Part shown: positions 5,241-11,798 of the stretch, piece by piece
Layout of the letters: each line of letters starts with the position of its first letter
Numbering within the stretch: the stretch's first letter is position 1
Origin: Candidatus Saccharimonadota bacterium
GTDB lineage: Bacteria; Patescibacteriota; Saccharimonadia; Saccharimonadales; JACDBH01
Direction of reading: 5' to 3'
Length of the DNA stretch: 64,000 nucleotides
NCBI GenBank assembly: GCA_028289135.1
Contig: JAQGGW010000006.1
Span: forward strand, 7,334 to 71,333
The notes under the pieces: generated by a model
The model's database searches: none
What the model was told of the DNA's origin: nothing
The model's input: only the letters and a program-made list of their open reading frames with translations
Made by a program: the position numbers and the translations under genes

Positions 5241-6227
5241 ATGGCAGAAACTAAAACAGAGCTTTTGAAGCAAGCAAAAGAGCTTGGTGTTGAGCACCTA
5301 ACAACCAAGAACACTATGGCCGAAATGCGTGACGCAATCGCCGCCGTAGCGCCTAAAAAGCATGACAAAGAAGCCTTGCCCGCAGAAGAGCACGAAGCCA
5401 AAGTTGCCAAAGCTGGCAAACGAAGCGAGAAGGCTCTAAAAGAAACAGAAGAAAAGATCGAAAAAGAAGAGCGCAAAACTCATGCAGCCGAAAAGGCCGA
5501 AGCGCCAAAAGCTCCTGTTAAAGTTGTTCGCACTAAGCTTGAACGCGCGGGCAAAAAGCTACGCGAAGTTGCAAAACTTGTTGAAAAAGACAAAATGTAT
5601 ACCCTTAAGGACGCTTTGGAGCTTGCTATCAAGACTAGCCCAGTCAAGTTTGATGCGACCGTTGAACTCCACATTAACCTTGGTGTTGACCCGCGCCAGG
5701 CTGACCAGAACGTGCGTGATAACCTTGTGCTGCCAGCTGGAACCGGCAAAACCATTCGTATCGCTGTCTTGGCCGAAGCTGACGACGCTAAAGCTGCAAA
5801 AGCTGCTGGTGCTGACATTGCTGGGACTGACGACCTGTTAAAAGACATCGAAAAAGGCATTATAAACTTTGACACCTTAATCGCTACACCGGCTCTCATG
5901 GCTCGTCTTGGCAAATACGCCCGCGTGCTTGGTCCAAAAGGCCTGATGCCTAACCCAAAGAGCGGTACAGTGACTCCAGACGTTGTTAAGGCTGTTGAAC
6001 AGGCTAAAGCCGGCCGCGTAGAATACCGCGTTGACTCAACCGGCATCGTCCACCTAGGCGTTGGCAAAGTTTCATTTGGTACCGACAAGCTCGCGACCAA
6101 CGTTGCAGCTGTGTTTGCGTCAATCAAGAGCAACAAGCCAGCCAGCCTAAAAGGTAACTACGTCAAGGCAATTACCATGAGCACCACAATGGGCCCTGGT
6201 ATCAAGATTGCTACAAACGAACTTTAG
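5241..6227 (+). CDS. rplA: 50S ribosomal protein L1 with a roughly 95-aa N-terminal extension
   Basis: The core, from about residue 100 ([40 protein letters not shown]), is canonical L1. The first 35 or so residues ([30 protein letters not shown]) resemble the Rho-N/HeH (SAP-like) motif and are followed by a Lys/Glu/Ala-rich linker. Confidence 0.95.
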
Positions 6228-6245
6228 GGTAGTGCTTTAATAAAA

Positions 6246-6277
6246 AACGACCTTCGAATTGAAGGTCGTTTTATTTT
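6246..6277. terminator. Bidirectional Rho-independent terminator between rplA and the convergent gene
   Basis: AACGACCTTC (6246-6255), loop GAATT, GAAGGTCGTT (6261-6270). An A-run sits on the left and TTATTTT on the right. Confidence 0.8.
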
Positions 6278-6286
6278 AACTAAAAA

Positions 6287-6685
6287 TTAGTTTCCGCCCT
6301 TGACCGAAAAGTGCTTGCCTATGTGCCTTCCTATAAAACCTTTTCTTTGCTCCTGTCCGTATGTAAGTTCAGCTTCTTGCTCATCTAGAAGAATTTTTCT
6401 AAGTTCTGGCTTTCGTGTACTTGAAGCATATAAAAGCGCTGTATTTTGTGCAGAAAGTTTATCTGGCACGGGTTGATCTGTATACCTCGCAATGGTACGT
6501 TCCACAACGAAGAGTAAAGCTGTCAGACCTATTACTCCAGATCCTAGCGCCACAACAGCGGTTGTATCAGGATTCCTCTGCGGCAATTGATTCATTGGCT
6601 GTTCAATAGAAGCAAAGGTGCTTTCCGGAATAGGAACTAAGGGCATAACTTGCGTTGAAAATTCCAGACTATACGGATGGCTCAT
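6287..6685 (-). CDS. Hypothetical single-span membrane protein
   Basis: 132-aa ORF with one hydrophobic span (VVALGSGVIGLTALLFVV). No recognised motif. Confidence 0.5.
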   Translation of the reverse strand: MSHPYSLEFSTQVMPLVPIPESTFASIEQPMNQLPQRNPDTTAVVALGSGVIGLTALLFVVERTIARYTDQPVPDKLSAQNTALLYASSTRKPELRKILLDEQEAELTYGQEQRKGFIGRHIGKHFSVKGGN

Positions 6686-6815
6686 ATAAGTTATAATATC
6701 ACACTAGTGCTTTTATGTCAATTGAGTAGTTTTATTAAAATCTACAACACGTATATGCTTGTAGGGCAATGGCGTGGCCTAGTATACTAGTGCCAAGACC
6801 GATAGGAGGGTTATT

Positions 6816-7529
6816 TTGGGAGTTTATAGTAACATGCAGATAAGAAAGGCTATTGATGATGGTCATATTATTTGCACCCCTTTTCAACCCAAGCATGTCA
6901 GCCAGGCCTCTTTGGACGTTACTTTAGGCTATTATTTTTACAGGGTAGAGCGCGTTAATGAGCGCGGTATTTATAATCCTTTTGAACGCGAGGATGTTGA
7001 ACGTTATTTTGACGGCCCATACGAAGCTATGCCGCATGGCCAGTGGTGCAAGCTAAATGGCGTAACACCGCTTAAAAATATCCCTCTCGACCATCCAGTC
7101 ATCGCCCTCAAGCCCGGCGAACGTATTTTGGCACATACCCACGAGTTCTTTGGAATCTTGCCGCCAGGCGCCTGCGAAGTAAAGAGCCGCTCTTCTTGGG
7201 GCCGCAACGGCGTCGCTGTCTGTTTTGACGCCGGCTGGGTTGACCCGGGCTACATTAACCGCCTTACTCTCGAGATTTATAACTTAAACCAGCGCGAAAC
7301 CGTTTTGCTGCCGGTAGGTGAGCGCATTGCCCAGATTGTTTTCCACGAAACCGGCGAAGTAGACGGCAGCTACGGCGCAGGCCGGGATAGCGGCTTTAGC
7401 GGCAAATACCAATCTGGCACCAATCTTAAGACCCTTATGGCCACCTGGTCGCCGTCACTGATGCTGCCGCGGGCTTACATCGACAGCCGGGAAATGCCGG
7501 TCAAGATTGAGGGTATGAGTTATGAATGA
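6816..7529 (+). CDS. dcd: dCTP deaminase / dUTPase-superfamily protein
   Basis: The N-terminus IRKAIDDGHIICTPF...ASLDVTLG is typical of Dcd. TTG start at 6816 lies 6 nt after AGGAGG (6804-6809), with ATG 6834 as an alternative. At 237 aa it is longer than the usual Dcd. Confidence 0.85.
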   Translation: MGVYSNMQIRKAIDDGHIICTPFQPKHVSQASLDVTLGYYFYRVERVNERGIYNPFEREDVERYFDGPYEAMPHGQWCKLNGVTPLKNIPLDHPVIALKPGERILAHTHEFFGILPPGACEVKSRSSWGRNGVAVCFDAGWVDPGYINRLTLEIYNLNQRETVLLPVGERIAQIVFHETGEVDGSYGAGRDSGFSGKYQSGTNLKTLMATWSPSLMLPRAYIDSREMPVKIEGMSYE

Positions 7530-9870
7530 GAAAACAACGCCGTCAACAAACGGCCGCTACATCGTTATTGAAGGCGCCGAGGGCGTCGGCAAAACCACTC
7601 AGCTGACCATGCTTGGGCAACGACTGGAAAAAGCTGGCTATCCTGTAAGATTATTCCGCGAACCAGACAGCCAAAGCGACCTTACAGCCCGCGCCATCCG
7701 CATGCTAACCCAAGATCCACGCTACCCAATGAACACGCGCACCGAAGTGCTGCTATACAACGCCGCCCGCAGCCAGTCGCTAGAAGTCATTAAGCGCGCC
7801 CGTGACGCCGGTGTTATCTGCCTCTGCGATCGCAACTACCTAACAACTCTTGCTATCCAGTACTACGGCCGCGGCGATGTGCCAGATTACGATACTATCA
7901 ACAGCATCATTAGCTTTGCGGTGGCCGACATGCAGCCGGACATGACCATTGTGCTTGATGCGCCAGTGCAGGACCTTAAAAAACGCTCAGAAAATCGCAA
8001 CGCTGGTGAACGTTTTGACAACTTAGACGAAGCATTTTTGGAACGTGTCCGGGCTGGATACCTTTGGGAAGCAAAACAGCGCGGCTTTTCGGTTATCTCG
8101 GCCATTAATTCCCCCGAGGAAGTAAACGAAGAAATCTGGAAGATCCTCAACGGCGCTGCCCAAACCCCAACTGCCGAGACAAACGAACCTCCAATGCTCA
8201 CATCAGCATCAGCAGCCACCACGCCTGCAGCTTCTATCAAAGAAGTTATCGAGGCCAAAATTGACCATCTTGAAGAAAAAAAGAAGCTAGAATTCCTTAA
8301 AAAAGACAAAGCAGGGCACTTTAAGATAACTGCCGACGGCAAAGAGTTCTTAAACGACGCTGTTACCACAAGTGACGGTGATGTCTACGCTTTTACCGAC
8401 AAACTTAGCCCAACCACGATTGCGGCCGCCATGGCCCGCCTCAGCCGCCGCGGTGACGACATGCGCGTGACATTGCTCGACGAATTCGCAGCTAGTGCAG
8501 GCAAAGACGCCAAGCTGCTCCAACGTGTTATTACCGCCTACGGCGATGACTCTGTCCAGCAGCTCGTGGGTATTCATGTAGTGGTCGAAAACGCCTCCAA
8601 TCTCCTAACCAAAAAGTTGGAATGGGGACGTCTGGCCGCTTATTTGGAACAGTCCACCCGCTATATTTACTTTGACCAAAAGGACCAGCACGGCAAATAC
8701 CGCTACTTTACGCCTGCCGATCTGCCGCTGAAGCTAAAGGATCACTACGAAGAAGTCATGGACAAGATTTTTGATATTTATTCGGATATGGTTCATAAGC
8801 TGACAGACTATGTCCGTGACCATTCAAGCGTCCCAGAAGCTGAGCGTGATGGCGCATTCAACGGCGCGACCCGTGCCCAAGCTTGCGACGCCATCCGAGC
8901 CGTTTTGCCAGTCGCCGTAAAGTCAACGGTCGGTATTTATGCTTCTGGGCAAGCTCTAGAAAGCCTTATTATGCATCTTCAGTCCGACAACTTGCCGGAA
9001 GCCCGCAAAGTTGGCGATGACCTTCTGCGTGAAGCCCGCAAAACAGTCCCAACATTTTTGGAGCGCGCCGACAAACCAGACCGCGGCGGCGCAATGGTAG
9101 CCTACCGCTCCAACACCTATAATGCTATGAAAAGGGTGGCCGACGAACAGCTTAAGCAGAACCTCGGCTCGCTGGACGAAGACATCCAGCTGGTAGACTA
9201 CTGGCCGCGCAATGAATTAGACCTCTTGCCGCACATGCTCTACGAGCACAGCACAATGAGCCTTAAAGACATCAAAAAAGAGATTCAAGCATGGCCGTAC
9301 GAGCAAAAACTAGCAGCATTTAGAACATATATGGGCGAACGCCTTAACCGCCGCCACAAGCCGGGCAGGGCGTTAGAAGCTGCCCATTATAGCTGGGACC
9401 TTTTGTGTGATTACGGGATCTTTCGTGATCTCCAGCGCCACCGCATGGTTGACGCCTTTGACTGGCAGCAGCTTACTCCGCGCTACGGCTTTGATATGCC
9501 TGAATTGGTTGAGCAAGCAGGCCTAAGCGACCAATTTGAACAGTGTTTTGACCTTAGCGCCGCGCTGTATAGCCAGCTCCAGGCCGAAGGTTTTGCGCTT
9601 GAGGCCCAGTACGCCACATTGCTTGGCCACCGCATGCGCTGGAAAATAATTTATAACGCCCGCGAAGCATTCCACTTTCACGAACTCCGCACTGCGCCGC
9701 AAGGCCACCCCGGCTACCGCAAACTAGTCAAAGAAATGCACGACAAAGTCGCTGAAATCCACCCGCTGCTCACCGACGCTATGATTTTTGTAAACAGAGA
9801 CGAAGACGAAGAGTTAACCCGCCTCGCCGCCGAAAAATACACCCAGTTTAAGCTAAGCCAGCTAAGCTAG
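7522..9870 (+). CDS. Fusion protein: thymidylate kinase (N-terminal) joined to a double-length ThyX-like flavin-dependent thymidylate synthase (C-terminal)
   Basis: Tmk P-loop YIVIEGAEGVGKTTQ plus a Tmk-like core of about 205 aa. Pro/Ala/Thr linker. A roughly 540-aa ThyX-like region carries LEQSTRYIYF in its first half and FRDLQRHRMVD (RHR at 9436-9444) and ELRTAPQGHPGYR in its second half. The start overlaps the dcd stop by 8 nt. Confidence 0.8.
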   Translation: MNEKTTPSTNGRYIVIEGAEGVGKTTQLTMLGQRLEKAGYPVRLFREPDSQSDLTARAIRMLTQDPRYPMNTRTEVLLYNAARSQSLEVIKRARDAGVICLCDRNYLTTLAIQYYGRGDVPDYDTINSIISFAVADMQPDMTIVLDAPVQDLKKRSENRNAGERFDNLDEAFLERVRAGYLWEAKQRGFSVISAINSPEEVNEEIWKILNGAAQTPTAETNEPPMLTSASAATTPAASIKEVIEAKIDHLEEKKKLEFLKKDKAGHFKITADGKEFLNDAVTTSDGDVYAFTDKLSPTTIAAAMARLSRRGDDMRVTLLDEFAASAGKDAKLLQRVITAYGDDSVQQLVGIHVVVENASNLLTKKLEWGRLAAYLEQSTRYIYFDQKDQHGKYRYFTPADLPLKLKDHYEEVMDKIFDIYSDMVHKLTDYVRDHSSVPEAERDGAFNGATRAQACDAIRAVLPVAVKSTVGIYASGQALESLIMHLQSDNLPEARKVGDDLLREARKTVPTFLERADKPDRGGAMVAYRSNTYNAMKRVADEQLKQNLGSLDEDIQLVDYWPRNELDLLPHMLYEHSTMSLKDIKKEIQAWPYEQKLAAFRTYMGERLNRRHKPGRALEAAHYSWDLLCDYGIFRDLQRHRMVDAFDWQQLTPRYGFDMPELVEQAGLSDQFEQCFDLSAALYSQLQAEGFALEAQYATLLGHRMRWKIIYNAREAFHFHELRTAPQGHPGYRKLVKEMHDKVAEIHPLLTDAMIFVNRDEDEELTRLAAEKYTQFKLSQLS

Positions 9871-10369
9871 AAACATTTGCATAATCTTCAGGTGTGTAAA
9901 TTTGAAAAGAAAATACCTCAAATGTATTTCCGGTCAAAGAATTATGATCATGCTTCGGTGACCTAGGAAAACGTTGTCCTGTCATAAGAAGATCTGCCTC
10001 ATGGCTATAAGCTGCTTCTACTTGTATATAAGGCGGATCAATCAAATTATCGTTATTTACTTCAATGTCTAAAGGTCCAGCAAGTAACAAAAATCCACGG
10101 TTAAACCAAAATCTTCCCACATCATCTTGGTTTGCACTTACTACAAAAGGTGGTGGTAGGTTTTCTTCAAGCTTATGAGGAAACTTTCCTGCCAAAATCC
10201 TAGCTGCCATTGTACCTCTGTCAAGATCCTTGACAGCTCTGTCTTTACTCTTATCATCAAGTCCCATAATATCGTGGAACCATCCCTCACGAATACGCTG
10301 GCTAACATGTAAGTCACCTTCAAAAGAGGGCACTTTTTGTCCAAGCAATATATTTAATCCGTGACTCAT
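9848..10369 (-). CDS. Hypothetical protein
   Basis: 173-aa ORF. It is convergent with the tmk::thyX 3' end and overlaps it by 23 nt. AT-rich by eye. No recognised motif. Confidence 0.5.
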   Translation of the reverse strand: MSHGLNILLGQKVPSFEGDLHVSQRIREGWFHDIMGLDDKSKDRAVKDLDRGTMAARILAGKFPHKLEENLPPPFVVSANQDDVGRFWFNRGFLLLAGPLDIEVNNDNLIDPPYIQVEAAYSHEADLLMTGQRFPRSPKHDHNSLTGNTFEVFSFQIYTPEDYANVSSLAGLA

Positions 10370-10412
10370 ATCTTTATTATATCACACTTAAGCTTATTAT
10401 GCAATATTAGTG

Positions 10413-10440
10413 TTGACGTTTAAGATTAAAAGAGTAAGCT
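10413..10440 (+). promoter_or_regulatory. Promoter candidate for the 10614 gene leader
   Basis: TTGACG (10413-10418), 16-nt spacer, TAAGCT (10435-10440). This predicts a 5' leader of about 165 nt. Confidence 0.35.
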
Positions 10441-10482
10441 AAAGTACGTTATGGTATTCGCTAACTCCAAATTACACGCGCT

Positions 10483-10595
10483 CAACCTTCTAGGTCTTAT
10501 AGAGGTTGTGTTGCCTATGGAGTGAAGCCAAACTAGATCCCGCAACAGAACCAGTCACCCTTAAACCCGGCTTCACTCCATACGTGAAGTTTTTT
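10483..10595 (+). promoter_or_regulatory. Structured 5' leader with mutually exclusive long hairpin and terminator (riboswitch- or attenuator-like)
   Basis: Hairpin 10483-10508. A 13-bp perfect stem, ATGGAGTGAAGCC (10517-10529) with GGCTTCACTCCAT (10569-10581), closes a 39-nt loop. The right arm shares CTTCAC (10571-10576) with a small hairpin CTTCAC/GTGAAG (10584-10589) followed by TTTTTT (10590-10595). AAGGAG and ATG 10614 follow. Confidence 0.35.
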
Positions 10596-10613
10596 AATTT
10601 TTAAGGAGAATAT

Positions 10614-11048
10614 ATGAATAATCATCAACAAAGTCCAAAACGTATAAACAACTGGGTTTTCAAACGCGGTGCGCCAATTAGAAGGGCAGCAGGAGAAAAT
10701 TACGAACCGGCAAAAGGTGTTCCAGGAGCAGAAGCTGCAAGAACATTGATAGAAATATTTATAGCATCTGGACAAGAACTAAATGAAAACGACCAGAGAA
10801 AATTTACAGCTGCAAAACGCTTATTTGGCATTGCAGATCCAGAGTATGCAAAAAATCATACATTAGATGCATCCACAGATGTAATTGCTGCTACAGTCGA
10901 AGTACAGAACAACGTAGTTTCTCAAGATGGTTCAGTAGCAGGAGAGGCTCCCCAAGTAATCTACCTGAACAGTAACTTTGGAGGCATGTTTCACGAGTAC
11001 TATACTGGAACGGATAAAACACCCGAGCCCCATATTTCAGAAACTTGA
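10614..11048 (+). CDS. Hypothetical protein
   Basis: 144-aa ORF with a good SD (AAGGAG) 7 nt upstream. No recognised motif. Confidence 0.55.
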   Translation: MNNHQQSPKRINNWVFKRGAPIRRAAGENYEPAKGVPGAEAARTLIEIFIASGQELNENDQRKFTAAKRLFGIADPEYAKNHTLDASTDVIAATVEVQNNVVSQDGSVAGEAPQVIYLNSNFGGMFHEYYTGTDKTPEPHISET

Positions 11049-11073
11049 CATATTACCCCCGTTAATCTATACT
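11045..11073 (+). promoter_or_regulatory. Near-consensus sigma70-type promoter for rplJ-rplL
   Basis: TTGACA (11045-11050), 17-nt spacer, TATACT (11068-11073). This predicts a 5' UTR of about 190 nt. Confidence 0.6.
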
Positions 11074-11080
11074 TTGTTTT

Positions 11081-11199
11081 GATTACCAAAGACAGTAGCG
11101 ATCGCAAGATTTAAGAATGCTACCGAGGTGAACATCTAGATTCTATTTGTTCAACGTAGAAACGTCTTTGTTAGTAATAACAGAGGCGTTTTTCGTTTT
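11081..11199 (+). promoter_or_regulatory. L10(L12)-leader-like 5' UTR with a terminator/attenuator hairpin
   Basis: Position upstream of rplJ. ACCAAAGACAGTAGC...GCTACCGAGGTG hairpin. A 13-bp stem AAACGTCTTTGTT / AACAGAGGCGTTT (11160-11191, with two U-G wobbles on the plus strand) is followed by TTCGTTTT. The match to the Rfam L10 leader was not verified. Confidence 0.4.
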
Positions 11200-11273
11200 A
11201 GTAATCAGTTGTATCTTTTCAAGGTCGATAAGATCAACACCTAGGTAAACTAAAATCCTAAAGGATTTATTAC

Positions 11274-11798
11274 ATGGCATTAACCAAACAAAAGAAAGAC
11301 GAAGTTGTTGCTGAAGTAGCAGCGCTATTGGCTAGTTCTAAACTAACCGTAGTTGCTCAGTATCAGGGGACAACCGTCAAAGCCATCCAGTCACTTCGAA
11401 AAGAAGCAAAAAACTCTGGTACCAAAGTTAGTGTCGTAAAAAACCGTTTGGTCATTAAAGCCGTTGCTGCAACCGAAAGCCTCAAAGACACTGATATCAG
11501 TGCGCTTAAAGGCCAGTTACTCTACGCTTTTAACGATTCAGACGAAGTAGCACCGGCTAAAAGCCTTGCTGATTTTGCGAAGACTAACCCAAGTATCCAA
11601 TTTGTTGGCGCAATCACGGCCGACGGCCAGTTTATGAGTGCGGATGACGTTAAAGCGCTGGCAACATTGCCAAGCAAGAACGAGTTGATTGCACAGGTTA
11701 TCGCCACCCTAACATCGCCATTAAACGATGTTATGAATGGTCTATCTGGCAACATCCACGCTTTGCTTGACGGTATCAGCGAAAAGGCTACGGCCTAA
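11274..11798 (+). CDS. rplJ: 50S ribosomal protein L10
   Basis: KQKKDEVVAEVAALLASSKLTVVAQYQGTTV is a typical L10 N-terminus. Synteny agrees. Confidence 0.95.
   Translation: MALTKQKKDEVVAEVAALLASSKLTVVAQYQGTTVKAIQSLRKEAKNSGTKVSVVKNRLVIKAVAATESLKDTDISALKGQLLYAFNDSDEVAPAKSLADFAKTNPSIQFVGAITADGQFMSADDVKALATLPSKNELIAQVIATLTSPLNDVMNGLSGNIHALLDGISEKATA

What the first reader, a model, noticed from the sequence alone, without database searches (positions are those of the whole stretch)
6816..9870. Translationally coupled dTTP module: dcd overlapping a single-ORF thymidylate kinase :: double-length ThyX fusion
One 782-aa ORF joins three parts:
- a complete Tmk module (P-loop GAEGVGKTT, about 205 aa)
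- a Pro/Ala/Thr-rich linker (about 8150-8240)
- a ThyX-like region of about 540 aa, roughly twice a canonical ThyX monomer

The ThyX signature appears split. STRY (LEQSTRYIYF) lies in the first half and RHR (9436-9444) in the second. The residue normally Ser in RHRxxS is Asp here (RHRMVD).

The ORF overlaps the stop of a dCTP-deaminase-family gene by 8 nt. Consecutive steps from dCTP to dTDP are therefore encoded in one coupled 3-kb unit. I do not recall a described Tmk-ThyX fusion, and the altered motif raises the question of whether both halves are catalytic.
Basis: partly seen in the sequence, partly recalled or inferred. Interest (0 to 1): 0.55.

Follow-up and report, generated by a model that had tools for sequence, protein, structure and literature searches.

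The report
Thymidylate kinase fused to split-site tandem ThyX
A real gene, conserved across Saccharibacteria, joins thymidylate kinase to a double-length flavin thymidylate synthase whose two halves each keep only one part of the catalytic site; the gene layout is already common in databases, but the split site appears to be undescribed.

Summary
A dCTP-deaminase gene (6816-7529) overlaps by 8 nt a 782-aa ORF (7522-9870) made of Tmk, a disordered linker and two complete ThyX domains.

It is not an artefact. All 80 related genome loci keep one uninterrupted ORF, 79/79 have dcd directly upstream, and 72/79 keep the same overlap.

It is not rare. All named sources of the fusion are Saccharibacteria or other Patescibacteria (CPR). 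JGI already labels some copies "thymidylate kinase/thymidylate synthase ThyX". Unfused tandem ThyX (about 540 aa) is widespread in CPR bacteria and DPANN archaea.

The new point concerns the two halves. They have degenerated in complementary ways across 426 family members. Half 1 keeps the dUMP/catalytic loop (E86, S88, R90, Y91, R147 in T. maritima numbering). Half 2 keeps the flavin side (RHR, R165, R174). In canonical ThyX these two sets come from different subunits of one site. I therefore infer one composite site per chain, and two per presumed dimer.

The Dcd carries the Trp that marks dUMP-forming bifunctional enzymes, so the unit plausibly runs dCTP to dUMP to dTMP to dTDP.

No paper or solved structure describing this was found. 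Quaternary structure and activity are untested.

The parts
6804..6809 (+). AGGAGG ribosome-binding site, 6 nt before the dcd TTG start
   Evidence: Read directly from the sequence.
6816..7529 (+). dcd: dCTP-deaminase-family gene (237 aa), predicted to be a bifunctional dUMP-forming dCTP deaminase:dUTPase
   Evidence: Pfam DCD E=5.5e-35. TIGR02274 scores 96.1 bits against a cut-off of 92.8. The best solved relatives are 4XJC, the M. tuberculosis enzyme 2QXX, and the M. jannaschii 'dUMP-forming' enzyme 1OGH; E. coli 1XS1 matches only weakly. A homolog lies directly upstream of the fusion in 79/79 related loci.
7236..7238 (+). Trp141 of Dcd, within AGW-V-D143-PGY: the aromatic residue two positions before the catalytic Asp
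   Evidence: PMC3360063 states that monofunctional Dcd enzymes have Arg here, which blocks dUTP hydrolysis, while bifunctional enzymes have Phe or Trp. The motif AGW[VI]DPGY is present in 79/79 relatives.
7522..7529 (+). 8-nt overlap (ATGAATGA) between the stop of dcd and the start of the fusion ORF; GAGGG ribosome-binding site at 7509-7513, inside dcd
   Evidence: Read from the sequence. The same in-frame ATG and 8-nt overlap occur in 72/79 related loci.
7522..9870 (+). Single 782-aa ORF: Tmk + linker + tandem ThyX
   Evidence: A 100% identical protein is in NCBI as 'MAG: putative thymidylate synthase [Candidatus Saccharibacteria bacterium]'. The ORF is uninterrupted in 80/80 related genome loci.
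7552..8148 (+). Thymidylate kinase module (aa ~11-209); P-loop GAEGVGKTT at nt 7573-7599
   Evidence: PF02223 E=1.9e-29. TIGR00041 scores 105.8 bits against a cut-off of 83.25. The top 50 Foldseek PDB hits to the model are all Tmk, with target TM 0.77-0.85 and 28-38% identity.
8149..8238 (+). Pro/Ala/Thr-rich disordered linker (aa ~210-239)
   Evidence: pLDDT is below 50 for aa 213-238 in the full-length model.
8284..9150 (+). ThyX half 1 (aa ~255-543): the substrate-loop half
   Evidence: Thy1 scores 68.7 bits when scanned alone. The family profile hits M. tuberculosis ThyX 3GWC at E=5.5e-13. pLDDT is about 90 or higher.
8647..8664 (+). E376-Q-S378-T-R380-Y381: equivalent to T. maritima E86, S88, R90, Y91 (dUMP-binding and catalytic loop)
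   Evidence: Register from the alignment to M. tuberculosis ThyX. These residues are 94-100% conserved in 426 family members. The loop is deleted in half 2.
8896..8898 (+). R459 of half 1: equivalent to T. maritima R147
   Evidence: R in 95-100% of family members. The matching position in half 2 is Q696 (Q in 87-99%).
9151..9867 (+). ThyX half 2 (aa ~544-782): the flavin/RHR half
   Evidence: Thy1 scores 60.0 bits when scanned alone. The family profile hits T. maritima, H. pylori and PBCV-1 ThyX. pLDDT is about 90 or higher.
9346..9369 (+). N609-R-R-H-K-P-G-R616: a near-invariant basic motif specific to half 2 of the tandem family, lying where canonical ThyX has G-H53-x-T55
   Evidence: R610, R611 and R616 are conserved at 94-100%, H612 at 78-89% and P614 at 94-96%. 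Function is unknown; see 'unexplained' in the report.
9424..9444 (+). R635-D-L-Q-R639-H640-R641: equivalent to T. maritima R74, Q75, R78-H79-R80 (ThyX RHR motif)
   Evidence: Register from the alignment to T. maritima ThyX. Conserved at 94-100%. Half 1 has K-K..W-G-R at these positions.
9655..9690 (+). N712-A-R714...L722-R723: equivalent to T. maritima N163, R165, L173, R174 (FAD and uracil contacts)
   Evidence: Conserved at 92-100% in half 2. In half 1 of fused forms the same positions are S, Q, M and H.
6244..6272 (+). Strong hairpin plus T-tract after rplA. It bounds the module upstream.
   Evidence: 13-bp stem followed by a T-run.
11068..11203 (+). L10 leader RNA before rplJ. It bounds the region downstream.
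   Evidence: Rfam RF00557 scores 69.8 bits against a gathering threshold of 44.

Best explanation
The region is a conserved, translationally coupled two-gene dTTP-precursor unit of a Saccharibacteria (CPR) genome.

Gene 1 is a dCTP-deaminase-family enzyme. It is predicted to be the bifunctional dUMP-forming type (dCTP to dUMP).

Gene 2 is one polypeptide made of a thymidylate kinase, a disordered linker, and a tandem (internally duplicated) flavin-dependent thymidylate synthase, ThyX.

The two ThyX halves are ancient paralogues that have lost complementary parts of the canonical active site:
- Half 1 keeps the dUMP-binding and catalytic loop plus R147. In canonical ThyX this is the role of subunit C.
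- Half 2 keeps the RHR motif, R165 and R174, which hold FAD and the uracil. In canonical ThyX these are the roles of subunits A and B.

A canonical ThyX site is assembled from different subunits of a homotetramer. The tandem protein should therefore form one complete composite site per chain, from half 2 plus half 1, and one degenerate pseudo-site. Two chains would give a pseudo-tetramer with two active sites instead of four. That would match the two Tmk sites of a Tmk dimer one to one. dTMP made by ThyX would be phosphorylated to dTDP by the tethered kinase.

Shown here: gene structure, domain identity, conservation across relatives, residue complementarity, and fold.

Inferred: composite-site geometry, dimeric state, dUMP-forming activity of the Dcd, and any substrate channelling.
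For: Gene structure and coupling:
- ORFs, overlap and ribosome-binding sites are as described.
- HMM hits pass the curated cut-offs for Tmk and Dcd, and two full Thy1 domains are present.
- The fusion is a single ORF in 80/80 independent genome loci, dcd lies upstream in 79/79, and the 8-nt overlap is kept in 72/79.

Fold:
- The tandem-region model has pLDDT 90.2 and pTM 0.86. It matches only single-domain ThyX chains, with target TM about 0.7 and query TM about 0.3.
- The Tmk module matches solved Tmk structures at target TM about 0.8.

Residue register:
- Half 1 was aligned to M. tuberculosis ThyX and half 2 to T. maritima ThyX using family profiles.
- A half-1 versus half-2 profile comparison gave the same register independently (E=9.5e-5).

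Conservation in 219 fused and 207 unfused tandem proteins:
- E86, S88, R90, Y91 and R147 are 94-100% kept in half 1 and 0/5 kept in half 2.
- R74, R78, H79, N163, R165, L173 and R174 are 92-100% kept in half 2. In half 1 of fused forms they are replaced by K, W, G, S, Q, M and H.

Subunit roles in canonical ThyX:
- RHR and Arg199 come from subunit A; Ser71 and Arg190 from subunit B; Gln103, Ser105, Arg107 and Tyr108 from subunit C (PMC6514825).
- In PBCV-1 ThyX, Gln75 and Arg182 come from one monomer and Ser88 and Gln89 from another (PMC3498832).

Dcd:
- The nearest solved relatives include enzymes described as bifunctional.
- The diagnostic Trp is conserved in 79/79 relatives.
Against: - No coordinates were available, so I could not verify that half 2's RHR/R723 and half 1's S378/R380/Y381/R459 converge on one pocket. 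I also could not determine which canonical interface is the intramolecular one.
- The assignment of subunit-B-role residues is mixed. The Ser71 equivalent is kept only in half 1 (S344). The Arg190 equivalent is kept in half 2 (R714) and only partly in half 1.
- The flavin-stacking His53 is absent from both halves (D342 and P614). Flavin handling therefore differs in some way from canonical ThyX.
- The TIGR02170 ThyX equivalog model scores below its cut-off (55 against 87.9).
- R147's subunit of origin comes from my own knowledge, not from a text I read here.
- The oligomeric state, FAD content and enzyme activities are all untested.
- The mono- versus bifunctional Dcd call rests on one diagnostic residue.
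Confidence: 0.72

Rival explanations
1. Both ThyX halves are independently competent, so a dimer of the fusion behaves like a normal ThyX tetramer with four active sites.
For: Both halves are complete Thy1 domains by Pfam and both are confidently folded. The third Arg of RHR (R370) is retained in half 1.
Against: Half 2 lacks the whole E86/S88/R90/Y91 loop, which is a 9-residue deletion, and it lacks R147 (Q696). Half 1 lacks R78, H79, R165 and R174 in the fused lineage. Ser88 and Tyr91 are reported as critical for activity (PMC11940539). The losses are family-wide and reciprocal, not sporadic.
Confidence: 0.05
2. The tandem ThyX-like module no longer makes dTMP. It would catalyse a different flavin-dependent pyrimidine modification or act on a different nucleotide substrate.
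For: The family is very divergent from characterised ThyX: no phmmer hit to the PDB and TIGR02170 below its cut-off. His53 is replaced in both halves, and an extra invariant NRRHKPGR motif is present.
Against: All canonical dUMP and uracil contacts (R78, R174, S88, R90, Y91, R147) are preserved somewhere in the protein. The protein is fused to a dTMP kinase that passes its equivalog cut-off. It is coupled to a dCTP deaminase in 79/79 loci. That context fits dUMP to dTMP to dTDP.
Confidence: 0.08
3. The Tmk module is not catalytic. It would be a nucleotide-sensing (dTMP/dTTP/ATP) regulatory domain for the synthase, with the real kinase encoded elsewhere.
For: I could not examine the rest of the genome for a second tmk. 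In two distant fused forms (P0141, P0151) the Tmk match stops short of the profile's C-terminal end.
Against: TIGR00041 equivalog scores 105.8 bits against a cut-off of 83.25. The P-loop is intact. The model matches Tmk at target TM about 0.8 with 28-38% identity to active Tmks. The module is retained across fused forms down to 34% identity.
Confidence: 0.07
4. The long ORF is an assembly or frameshift artefact that joins separate tmk and thyX genes.
For: The junction is a low-complexity Pro/Ala/Thr stretch in a metagenome-assembled genome.
Against: The fusion is a single uninterrupted ORF in 80/80 independently assembled genomes at 62-87% identity, including complete chromosomes. Hundreds of database proteins of 765-800 aa show the same layout. 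Distant fused forms exist as well.
Confidence: 0.01

Closest known systems
Canonical homotetrameric ThyX / FDTS (T. maritima TM0449, M. tuberculosis Rv2754c, PBCV-1 A674R)
   Same: Same fold in each half (Foldseek target TM about 0.7). Same Pfam family. Every canonical dUMP and FAD contact listed in PMC6514825 is present somewhere in the protein.
   Different: Two domains sit in one chain and have no detectable pairwise similarity to each other (BLASTP E=5.6). The RHR-X7-S motif is not intact in either half. The catalytic residues are partitioned between the halves. His53 is replaced in both halves. There is an extra NRRHKPGR motif. Two sites per pseudo-tetramer are predicted instead of four.
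[quoted passage not shown]
   Same: Same two-half architecture and the same complementary residue pattern. The window's ThyX region is a member of this family (E down to 1e-237).
   Different: They lack the N-terminal Tmk. The one neighbourhood I examined (P0410) has no adjacent dcd or tmk. Half 1 is less degenerate in these forms: R165 is kept in 69%, and K or R stands at the R174 position in 88%.
Bifunctional DHFR-TS of protozoa and plants (from my own knowledge)
   Same: Enzymes of the thymidylate cycle joined in one chain. It is the classical example of a fusion proposed to channel intermediates.
   Different: Unrelated folds (ThyA and DHFR). The partner activities differ. There is no internal duplication and no split active site.
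Bifunctional dCTP deaminase:dUTPase (M. jannaschii MJ0430, PDB 1OGH; M. tuberculosis Rv0321, PDB 2QXX)
   Same: The window's Dcd shares the family motifs and the aromatic residue at the diagnostic position.
   Different: It is 237 aa, with an insertion of about 45 aa near residues 45-90 relative to the solved enzymes. Its activity is untested.
T. thermophilus Thy1 with an extra C-terminal domain (PDB 6J61)
   Same: A ThyX with an appended domain, and a structural hit to the model.
   Different: It has a single ThyX domain. Its extra domain is neither a kinase nor a second ThyX copy.

Membership tests
Thymidylate kinase (Tmk; TIGR00041 / PF02223) | Score above the curated equivalog cut-off | tested here: met
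   TIGR00041 scores 105.8 bits against a cut-off of 83.25. PF02223 scores 103.1 against 27.
Thymidylate kinase (Tmk; TIGR00041 / PF02223) | P-loop GxxGxGK[ST] and the Tmk fold | tested here: met
   GAEGVGKTT at aa 18-26. Foldseek top hits are all Tmk, with target TM 0.77-0.85.
Thymidylate kinase (Tmk; TIGR00041 / PF02223) | dTMP + ATP to dTDP activity | not testable with these tools
   Needs an enzyme assay or complementation of a tmk mutant.
ThyX / flavin-dependent thymidylate synthase (PF02511; TIGR02170) | Thy1 domain above the Pfam gathering score | tested here: met
   Met twice: 68.7 and 60.0 bits against a gathering score of 24.8, each covering nearly the full profile.
ThyX / flavin-dependent thymidylate synthase (PF02511; TIGR02170) | NCBIfam equivalog cut-off for thyX | tested here: not met
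   TIGR02170 scores 55 bits against a cut-off of 87.9.
ThyX / flavin-dependent thymidylate synthase (PF02511; TIGR02170) | Intact ThyX motif (RHR...S-x-R-Y) within one domain | tested here: not met
   Half 1 reads W-G-R...S-T-R-Y. Half 2 reads R-H-R with the S-x-R-Y loop deleted. The motif is complete only when both halves are combined.
ThyX / flavin-dependent thymidylate synthase (PF02511; TIGR02170) | ThyX fold | tested here: met
   Model pLDDT 90.2. Foldseek hits to M. tuberculosis, T. maritima and PBCV-1 ThyX have target TM about 0.7 and probability 1.00.
ThyX / flavin-dependent thymidylate synthase (PF02511; TIGR02170) | Homotetramer with four sites, each built from three subunits; bound FAD | not testable with these tools
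   Only a monomer could be predicted and no coordinates were exposed. A dimer forming a pseudo-tetramer with two sites is inferred.
Tandem (double-length) ThyX family of CPR/DPANN (unnamed) | Two Thy1 halves with complementary retention of the substrate-loop and RHR/R174 residue sets | tested here: met
   The window sequence aligns end to end with the family. The residue pattern is shared by 219 fused and 207 unfused members.
dCTP deaminase (TIGR02274 / PF22769) | Score above the curated cut-offs; SSxGR and DPG...TLE motifs | tested here: met
   TIGR02274 scores 96.1 bits against 92.8. PF22769 scores 121.2 against 27. The motifs SRSSWGR, AGWVDPGY and LTLE are present.
Bifunctional dCTP deaminase:dUTPase (dUMP-forming) | Aromatic residue (Phe/Trp) instead of Arg two positions before the catalytic Asp | tested here: met
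   Trp141 precedes Asp143. The criterion comes from PMC3360063. It is conserved in 79/79 relatives.
Bifunctional dCTP deaminase:dUTPase (dUMP-forming) | Release of dUMP + PPi from dCTP | not testable with these tools
   Needs an enzyme assay.

The most novel reading that the evidence does not exclude
The tandem ThyX family would be a naturally evolved obligate pseudo-heterotetramer. After an ancient internal duplication, the flavin-holding role (half 2) and the substrate-loop/catalytic role (half 1) were partitioned between paralogous domains, halving the number of active sites. The design is shared by the two radiations of ultra-small episymbionts, CPR bacteria and DPANN archaea, which would imply ancient inheritance or inter-domain transfer. 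In Saccharibacteria it was then tethered to Tmk, giving one ThyX site per kinase site and possibly handing dTMP directly to the kinase. None of this appears to have been described or solved structurally.
Probability: 0.5. Interest if true: 0.6.

Novelty: new variant of a known kind. Interest (0 to 1): 0.45.

Why it matters
ThyX is a drug target and a mechanistically unusual enzyme. Its active site is built from three subunits, which makes the contribution of each subunit hard to dissect in a homotetramer.

A natural single-chain version that has separated the flavin-side residues from the substrate-loop residues would act as a ready-made asymmetric ThyX. Each role could be mutated independently. 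It would show that two sites per pseudo-tetramer are enough. It would also show how the enzyme works without the canonical His53.

For CPR and DPANN biology, it marks thymidylate synthesis as a pathway these reduced-genome symbionts retain and have compacted: coupled dcd, fused tmk, and placement inside the ribosomal-protein cluster.

For annotation, many members are labelled only 'dTMP kinase', and Pfam Thy1 misses the ThyX part in some distant members. ThyX presence is therefore under-called in metabolic reconstructions of these lineages.

Tried and rejected
- **Single-sequence phmmer against the PDB.** The ThyX region and half 1 alone found no ThyX, only chance hits. Family profiles were needed.
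- **Direct BLASTP of half 1 against half 2.** Nothing found (E=5.6). The duplication is visible only with profiles.
- **Foldseek with the full-length model.** It returned only Tmk hits in the top 50, so the tandem region had to be modelled separately.
- **Model coordinates.** They are not exposed to scripts, so the composite-site geometry and the identity of the intramolecular interface could not be tested.
- **Cluster look-up for taxonomy.** It gave no organism names. Taxonomy came from NCBI names.
- **Literature searches.** ThyX + thymidylate kinase + fusion gave one irrelevant paper. ThyX + Saccharibacteria, ThyX + DPANN and 'ThyX domain' each gave 0 papers. ThyX + Patescibacteria gave 2 papers, neither bearing on this (one read; one judged from title and abstract).
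- **Chlamydial ThyX.** I recall that it is about 529 aa and may be a tandem. I could not verify this. PMC6171736 says only that chlamydial ThyX is too divergent to have been included in earlier phylogenies.
- **Single origin of the fusion.** Not supported by a crude NJ tree, which gave two fused clades and at least 4 state changes. I leave this open.
- **Considered and rejected:** an assembly artefact, and two independently active halves (see the rival explanations).

Full report

Yes. The + strand carries a 237-aa ORF (6816..7529, TTG start) and a 782-aa ORF (7522..9870, ATG start). The junction reads ...GGTATGAGTT**ATG**AA**TGA**G. The second ORF therefore starts 8 nt before the first one stops. 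A GAGGG ribosome-binding site lies 8 nt upstream of that ATG, inside dcd. The dcd TTG is preceded by AGGAGG.

Pfam and NCBIfam give these assignments:

| Protein or region | Model | Result |
|---|---|---|
| Upstream protein | Pfam DCD | E=5.5e-35 |
| Upstream protein | TIGR02274 dCTP deaminase | 96.1 bits, cut-off 92.8 |
| Long ORF, aa 16-205 | Pfam Thymidylate_kin | E=1.9e-29 |
| Long ORF | TIGR00041 dTMP kinase | 105.8 bits, cut-off 83.25 |
| Long ORF | Pfam Thy1 | two stretches |

Scanned separately, aa ~296-511 scores 68.7 bits and aa ~558-749 scores 60.0 bits. Each covers almost the whole 191-position Thy1 profile. The ThyX region is therefore a true tandem of two complete domains.

**2. 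Artefact or real gene?**

It is a real gene.
- An identical protein is in NCBI as 'MAG: putative thymidylate synthase [Candidatus Saccharibacteria bacterium]'. The best 120 database relatives are all 739-794 aa and 67-95% identical over the full length.
- A scan of one genome per species found 138 genomes with a relative. The 80 loci kept are all Saccharibacteria, Saccharimonadales or Patescibacteria MAGs, and some are complete chromosomes.
- All 80 loci keep the fusion as one uninterrupted ORF. A dcd homolog (73-93% identity) lies directly upstream on the same strand in 79/79 loci with enough flank.
- The same in-frame ATG and 8-nt overlap are present in 72/79 loci.
- rplA lies upstream in 73/80 loci and rplJ downstream in 62/80.
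- In the window, a strong hairpin terminator follows rplA (6244-6272), and an L10 leader RNA precedes rplJ (11068-11203).

The module therefore occupies the boundary between the rplKA and rplJL operons throughout this clade.

**3. How common is the architecture?**

An exhaustive search with the ThyX region alone found 3488 clusters (at 50% identity) with E ≤ 1e-3, and 703 with E ≤ 1e-30. The top 150 split into two kinds:
- proteins of about 720-800 aa in which the match starts near residue 250;
- proteins of about 505-560 aa that match over their whole length.

All nine distant long forms I tested (34-49% identity) carry an N-terminal Tmk. In two of them Pfam Thy1 does not detect the ThyX part at all.

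The short, unfused forms are named 'FAD-dependent thymidylate synthase'. They come from DPANN archaea (Aenigmarchaeota, Micrarchaeota, Woesearchaeota, Diapherotrites) and from CPR bacteria, including some Saccharimonadales and Woesebacteria.

JGI already names several fused proteins 'thymidylate kinase/thymidylate synthase ThyX'. One unfused Saccharimonadales gene has unrelated neighbours, with no dcd or tmk nearby.

A crude NJ tree places the fused forms in two main clades and needs at least 4 state changes. A single fusion event is therefore not established.

At database level, then, the architecture is common and partly annotated. In the searchable literature I found nothing describing it. 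No solved structure spans a tandem ThyX either. Both the sequence-profile search and the fold search of the PDB return only single-domain chains of about 200-270 residues.

**4. What are the two halves doing?**

The halves show no pairwise similarity to each other (BLASTP E=5.6). The duplication is therefore ancient. Registers against crystallised enzymes came from family profiles:
- Half 1 aligns to M. tuberculosis ThyX (E=5.5e-13).
- Half 2 aligns to T. maritima, H. pylori and PBCV-1 ThyX.
- An independent profile-profile comparison of half 1 against half 2 gives the same register (E=9.5e-5). W-G-R faces R-H-R. The QSTRYIYFD loop of half 1 faces a 9-residue deletion in half 2. R459 faces Q696.

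I then aligned 219 fused and 207 unfused tandem proteins to one HMM and tabulated the canonical positions, using T. maritima numbering:

| Canonical residues | Half 1 | Half 2 |
|---|---|---|
| E86, S88, R90, Y91, R147 | E376, S378, R380, Y381, R459; 94-100% conserved | absent or replaced (loop deleted; Q649; Q696) |
| R74, R78, H79, N163, R165, L173, R174 | K, W, G, S, Q, M, H in fused forms | R635, R639, H640, N712, R714, L722, R723; 92-100% conserved |
| R80 | kept (R370) | kept (R641) |

In a canonical active site, the published structures assign the residues to subunits as follows (PMC6514825):
- Subunit A supplies RHR and Arg199 (T. maritima R174).
- Subunit B supplies Ser71 and Arg190 (T. 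maritima T55 and R165).
- Subunit C supplies Gln103, Ser105, Arg107 and Tyr108 (T. maritima E86, S88, R90, Y91).

The PBCV-1 structure likewise puts Gln75 and Arg182 on one monomer and Ser88 and Gln89 on another (PMC3498832). Ser88 and Tyr91 are reported as critical for activity (PMC11940539).

So half 2 has kept the flavin/RHR role and half 1 the substrate-loop role. The loss is reciprocal and family-wide. The simplest reading is one composite site per chain, built from half 2 plus half 1, together with one dead pseudo-site. Two chains would then give a pseudo-tetramer with two sites.

Bacterial Tmk is normally a homodimer (my own knowledge). A dimer of the fusion would therefore satisfy both modules and give one ThyX site per Tmk site.

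Neither half is catalytic alone, and together they form one site.

The Asp in RHRMVD sits at the T. maritima Ser83 position. It is specific to the fused lineage: D in 94% of fused forms, T or S in 89% of unfused forms.

**5. Structure**

- The full-length model has mean pLDDT 84.7, with a disordered linker at aa 213-238. Its best PDB matches are all thymidylate kinases, with target TM 0.77-0.85.
- The tandem-only model has pLDDT 90.2 and pTM 0.86, so the two halves pack in a defined way. It matches M. tuberculosis, T. maritima, PBCV-1 and T. thermophilus ThyX at target TM about 0.7. Each hit covers about half of the model.
The convergence of the two residue sets on one pocket is therefore inferred, not shown.

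**6. The dcd gene**

Its closest solved relatives are 4XJC, M. tuberculosis 2QXX/2QLP and M. jannaschii 1OGH. The last is labelled 'dCTP deaminase, dUMP-forming'. E. coli monofunctional Dcd (1XS1) is a much weaker match.

PMC3360063 describes the M. tuberculosis enzyme as bifunctional and gives a diagnostic. Monofunctional enzymes have an Arg two residues before the catalytic Asp, and that Arg blocks dUTP hydrolysis. Bifunctional enzymes have Phe or Trp there.

The window has A-G-W141-V-D143-P-G-Y, and all 79 relatives keep the Trp. The Dcd is therefore predicted to produce dUMP directly. That would make the 3-kb unit a complete route from dCTP through dUMP and dTMP to dTDP. The prediction rests on one residue and is untested.

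**7. Unexplained**

- The flavin-stacking His53 is replaced in both halves: invariant Asp342 in a G-D-D-S motif in half 1, and Pro614 in half 2.
- Half 2 carries a near-invariant basic motif, N-R-R-H-K/R-P-G-R (aa 609-616), at that location. It has no canonical counterpart. It may take over flavin, NADPH or folate contacts.
- The subunit-B-role residues are split. The Ser71 equivalent is kept only in half 1, while the Arg190 equivalent is kept mainly in half 2. I cannot say which canonical interface is the intramolecular one.

**8. Verdict**

The gene is ordinary in the sense that it is a conserved, widely distributed and partly auto-annotated architecture of Saccharibacteria. Fusion of consecutive enzymes is also a familiar theme.

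What appears to be undescribed is the tandem ThyX itself, and in particular the complementary partition of the active site between its halves, shared by CPR bacteria and DPANN archaea. I rate it a new variant of a known kind, with moderate interest.

Noticed in passing
window 5241-6227 (+): Ribosomal protein L1 is 328 aa. The Pfam L1 domain starts only at aa 131, leaving an N-terminal Lys/Glu/Ala-rich extension of about 110-130 aa. rplA homologs in related loci are mostly similarly long (about 320-355 aa).
   Followed up: partly
window 5241-11798; loci L001-L080: The dcd-tmk::thyX module sits between rplA and rplJ on the same strand in most related Saccharibacteria genomes (rplA upstream in 73/80, rplJ downstream in 62/80). 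A nucleotide-metabolism unit is thus embedded at the rplKA/rplJL operon boundary.
   Followed up: partly
window 11068-11203 (+): An L10 leader RNA (Rfam RF00557, 69.8 bits) lies directly upstream of rplJ (11274). It was the only Rfam gathering-level hit in the 64-kb window.
   Followed up: yes
window 6287-6685 (-), 9848-10369 (-), 10614-11048 (+): Three ORFs flank the module (132, 173 and 144 aa). None has a Pfam hit, and the 80 related loci hold essentially no homologs: 0 for the first and third, and for the second only one weak match (38.6% identity, L001) to an ORF overlapping dcd on the opposite strand, probably spurious. They may be lineage-specific genes or non-coding. The 173-aa ORF overlaps the 3' end of the fusion ORF by 23 nt, convergently. 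A near-consensus sigma-70-like promoter (TTGACA-17-TATTAT with an upstream TG) at 6721-6693 on the minus strand faces the 132-aa ORF.
   Followed up: partly
proteins P0202 and P0222: In some distant Tmk-tandem-ThyX fusions the Pfam Thy1 model detects nothing in the roughly 500-aa ThyX region. Pipelines therefore call these proteins only 'dTMP kinase', and ThyX is probably under-counted in CPR metabolic reconstructions.
   Followed up: partly
protein P0195 (717 aa): A tandem ThyX with a C-terminal extension of about 175 aa and no Pfam match. This is a third architecture in the family.
   Followed up: no
proteins P0274-P0392: Unfused tandem ThyX of about 540 aa is widespread in DPANN archaea (Aenigmarchaeota, Micrarchaeota, Woesearchaeota, Diapherotrites) as well as in CPR bacteria. 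The distribution across two domains of ultra-small symbionts suggests ancient inheritance or inter-domain transfer.
   Followed up: partly
window 6816-7529, Dcd aa ~45-90: The Dcd is 237 aa, against about 160-205 aa for the solved family members. The extra sequence is an insertion between the N-terminal strand and the conserved core. The 237-aa length is shared by most relatives.
   Followed up: no
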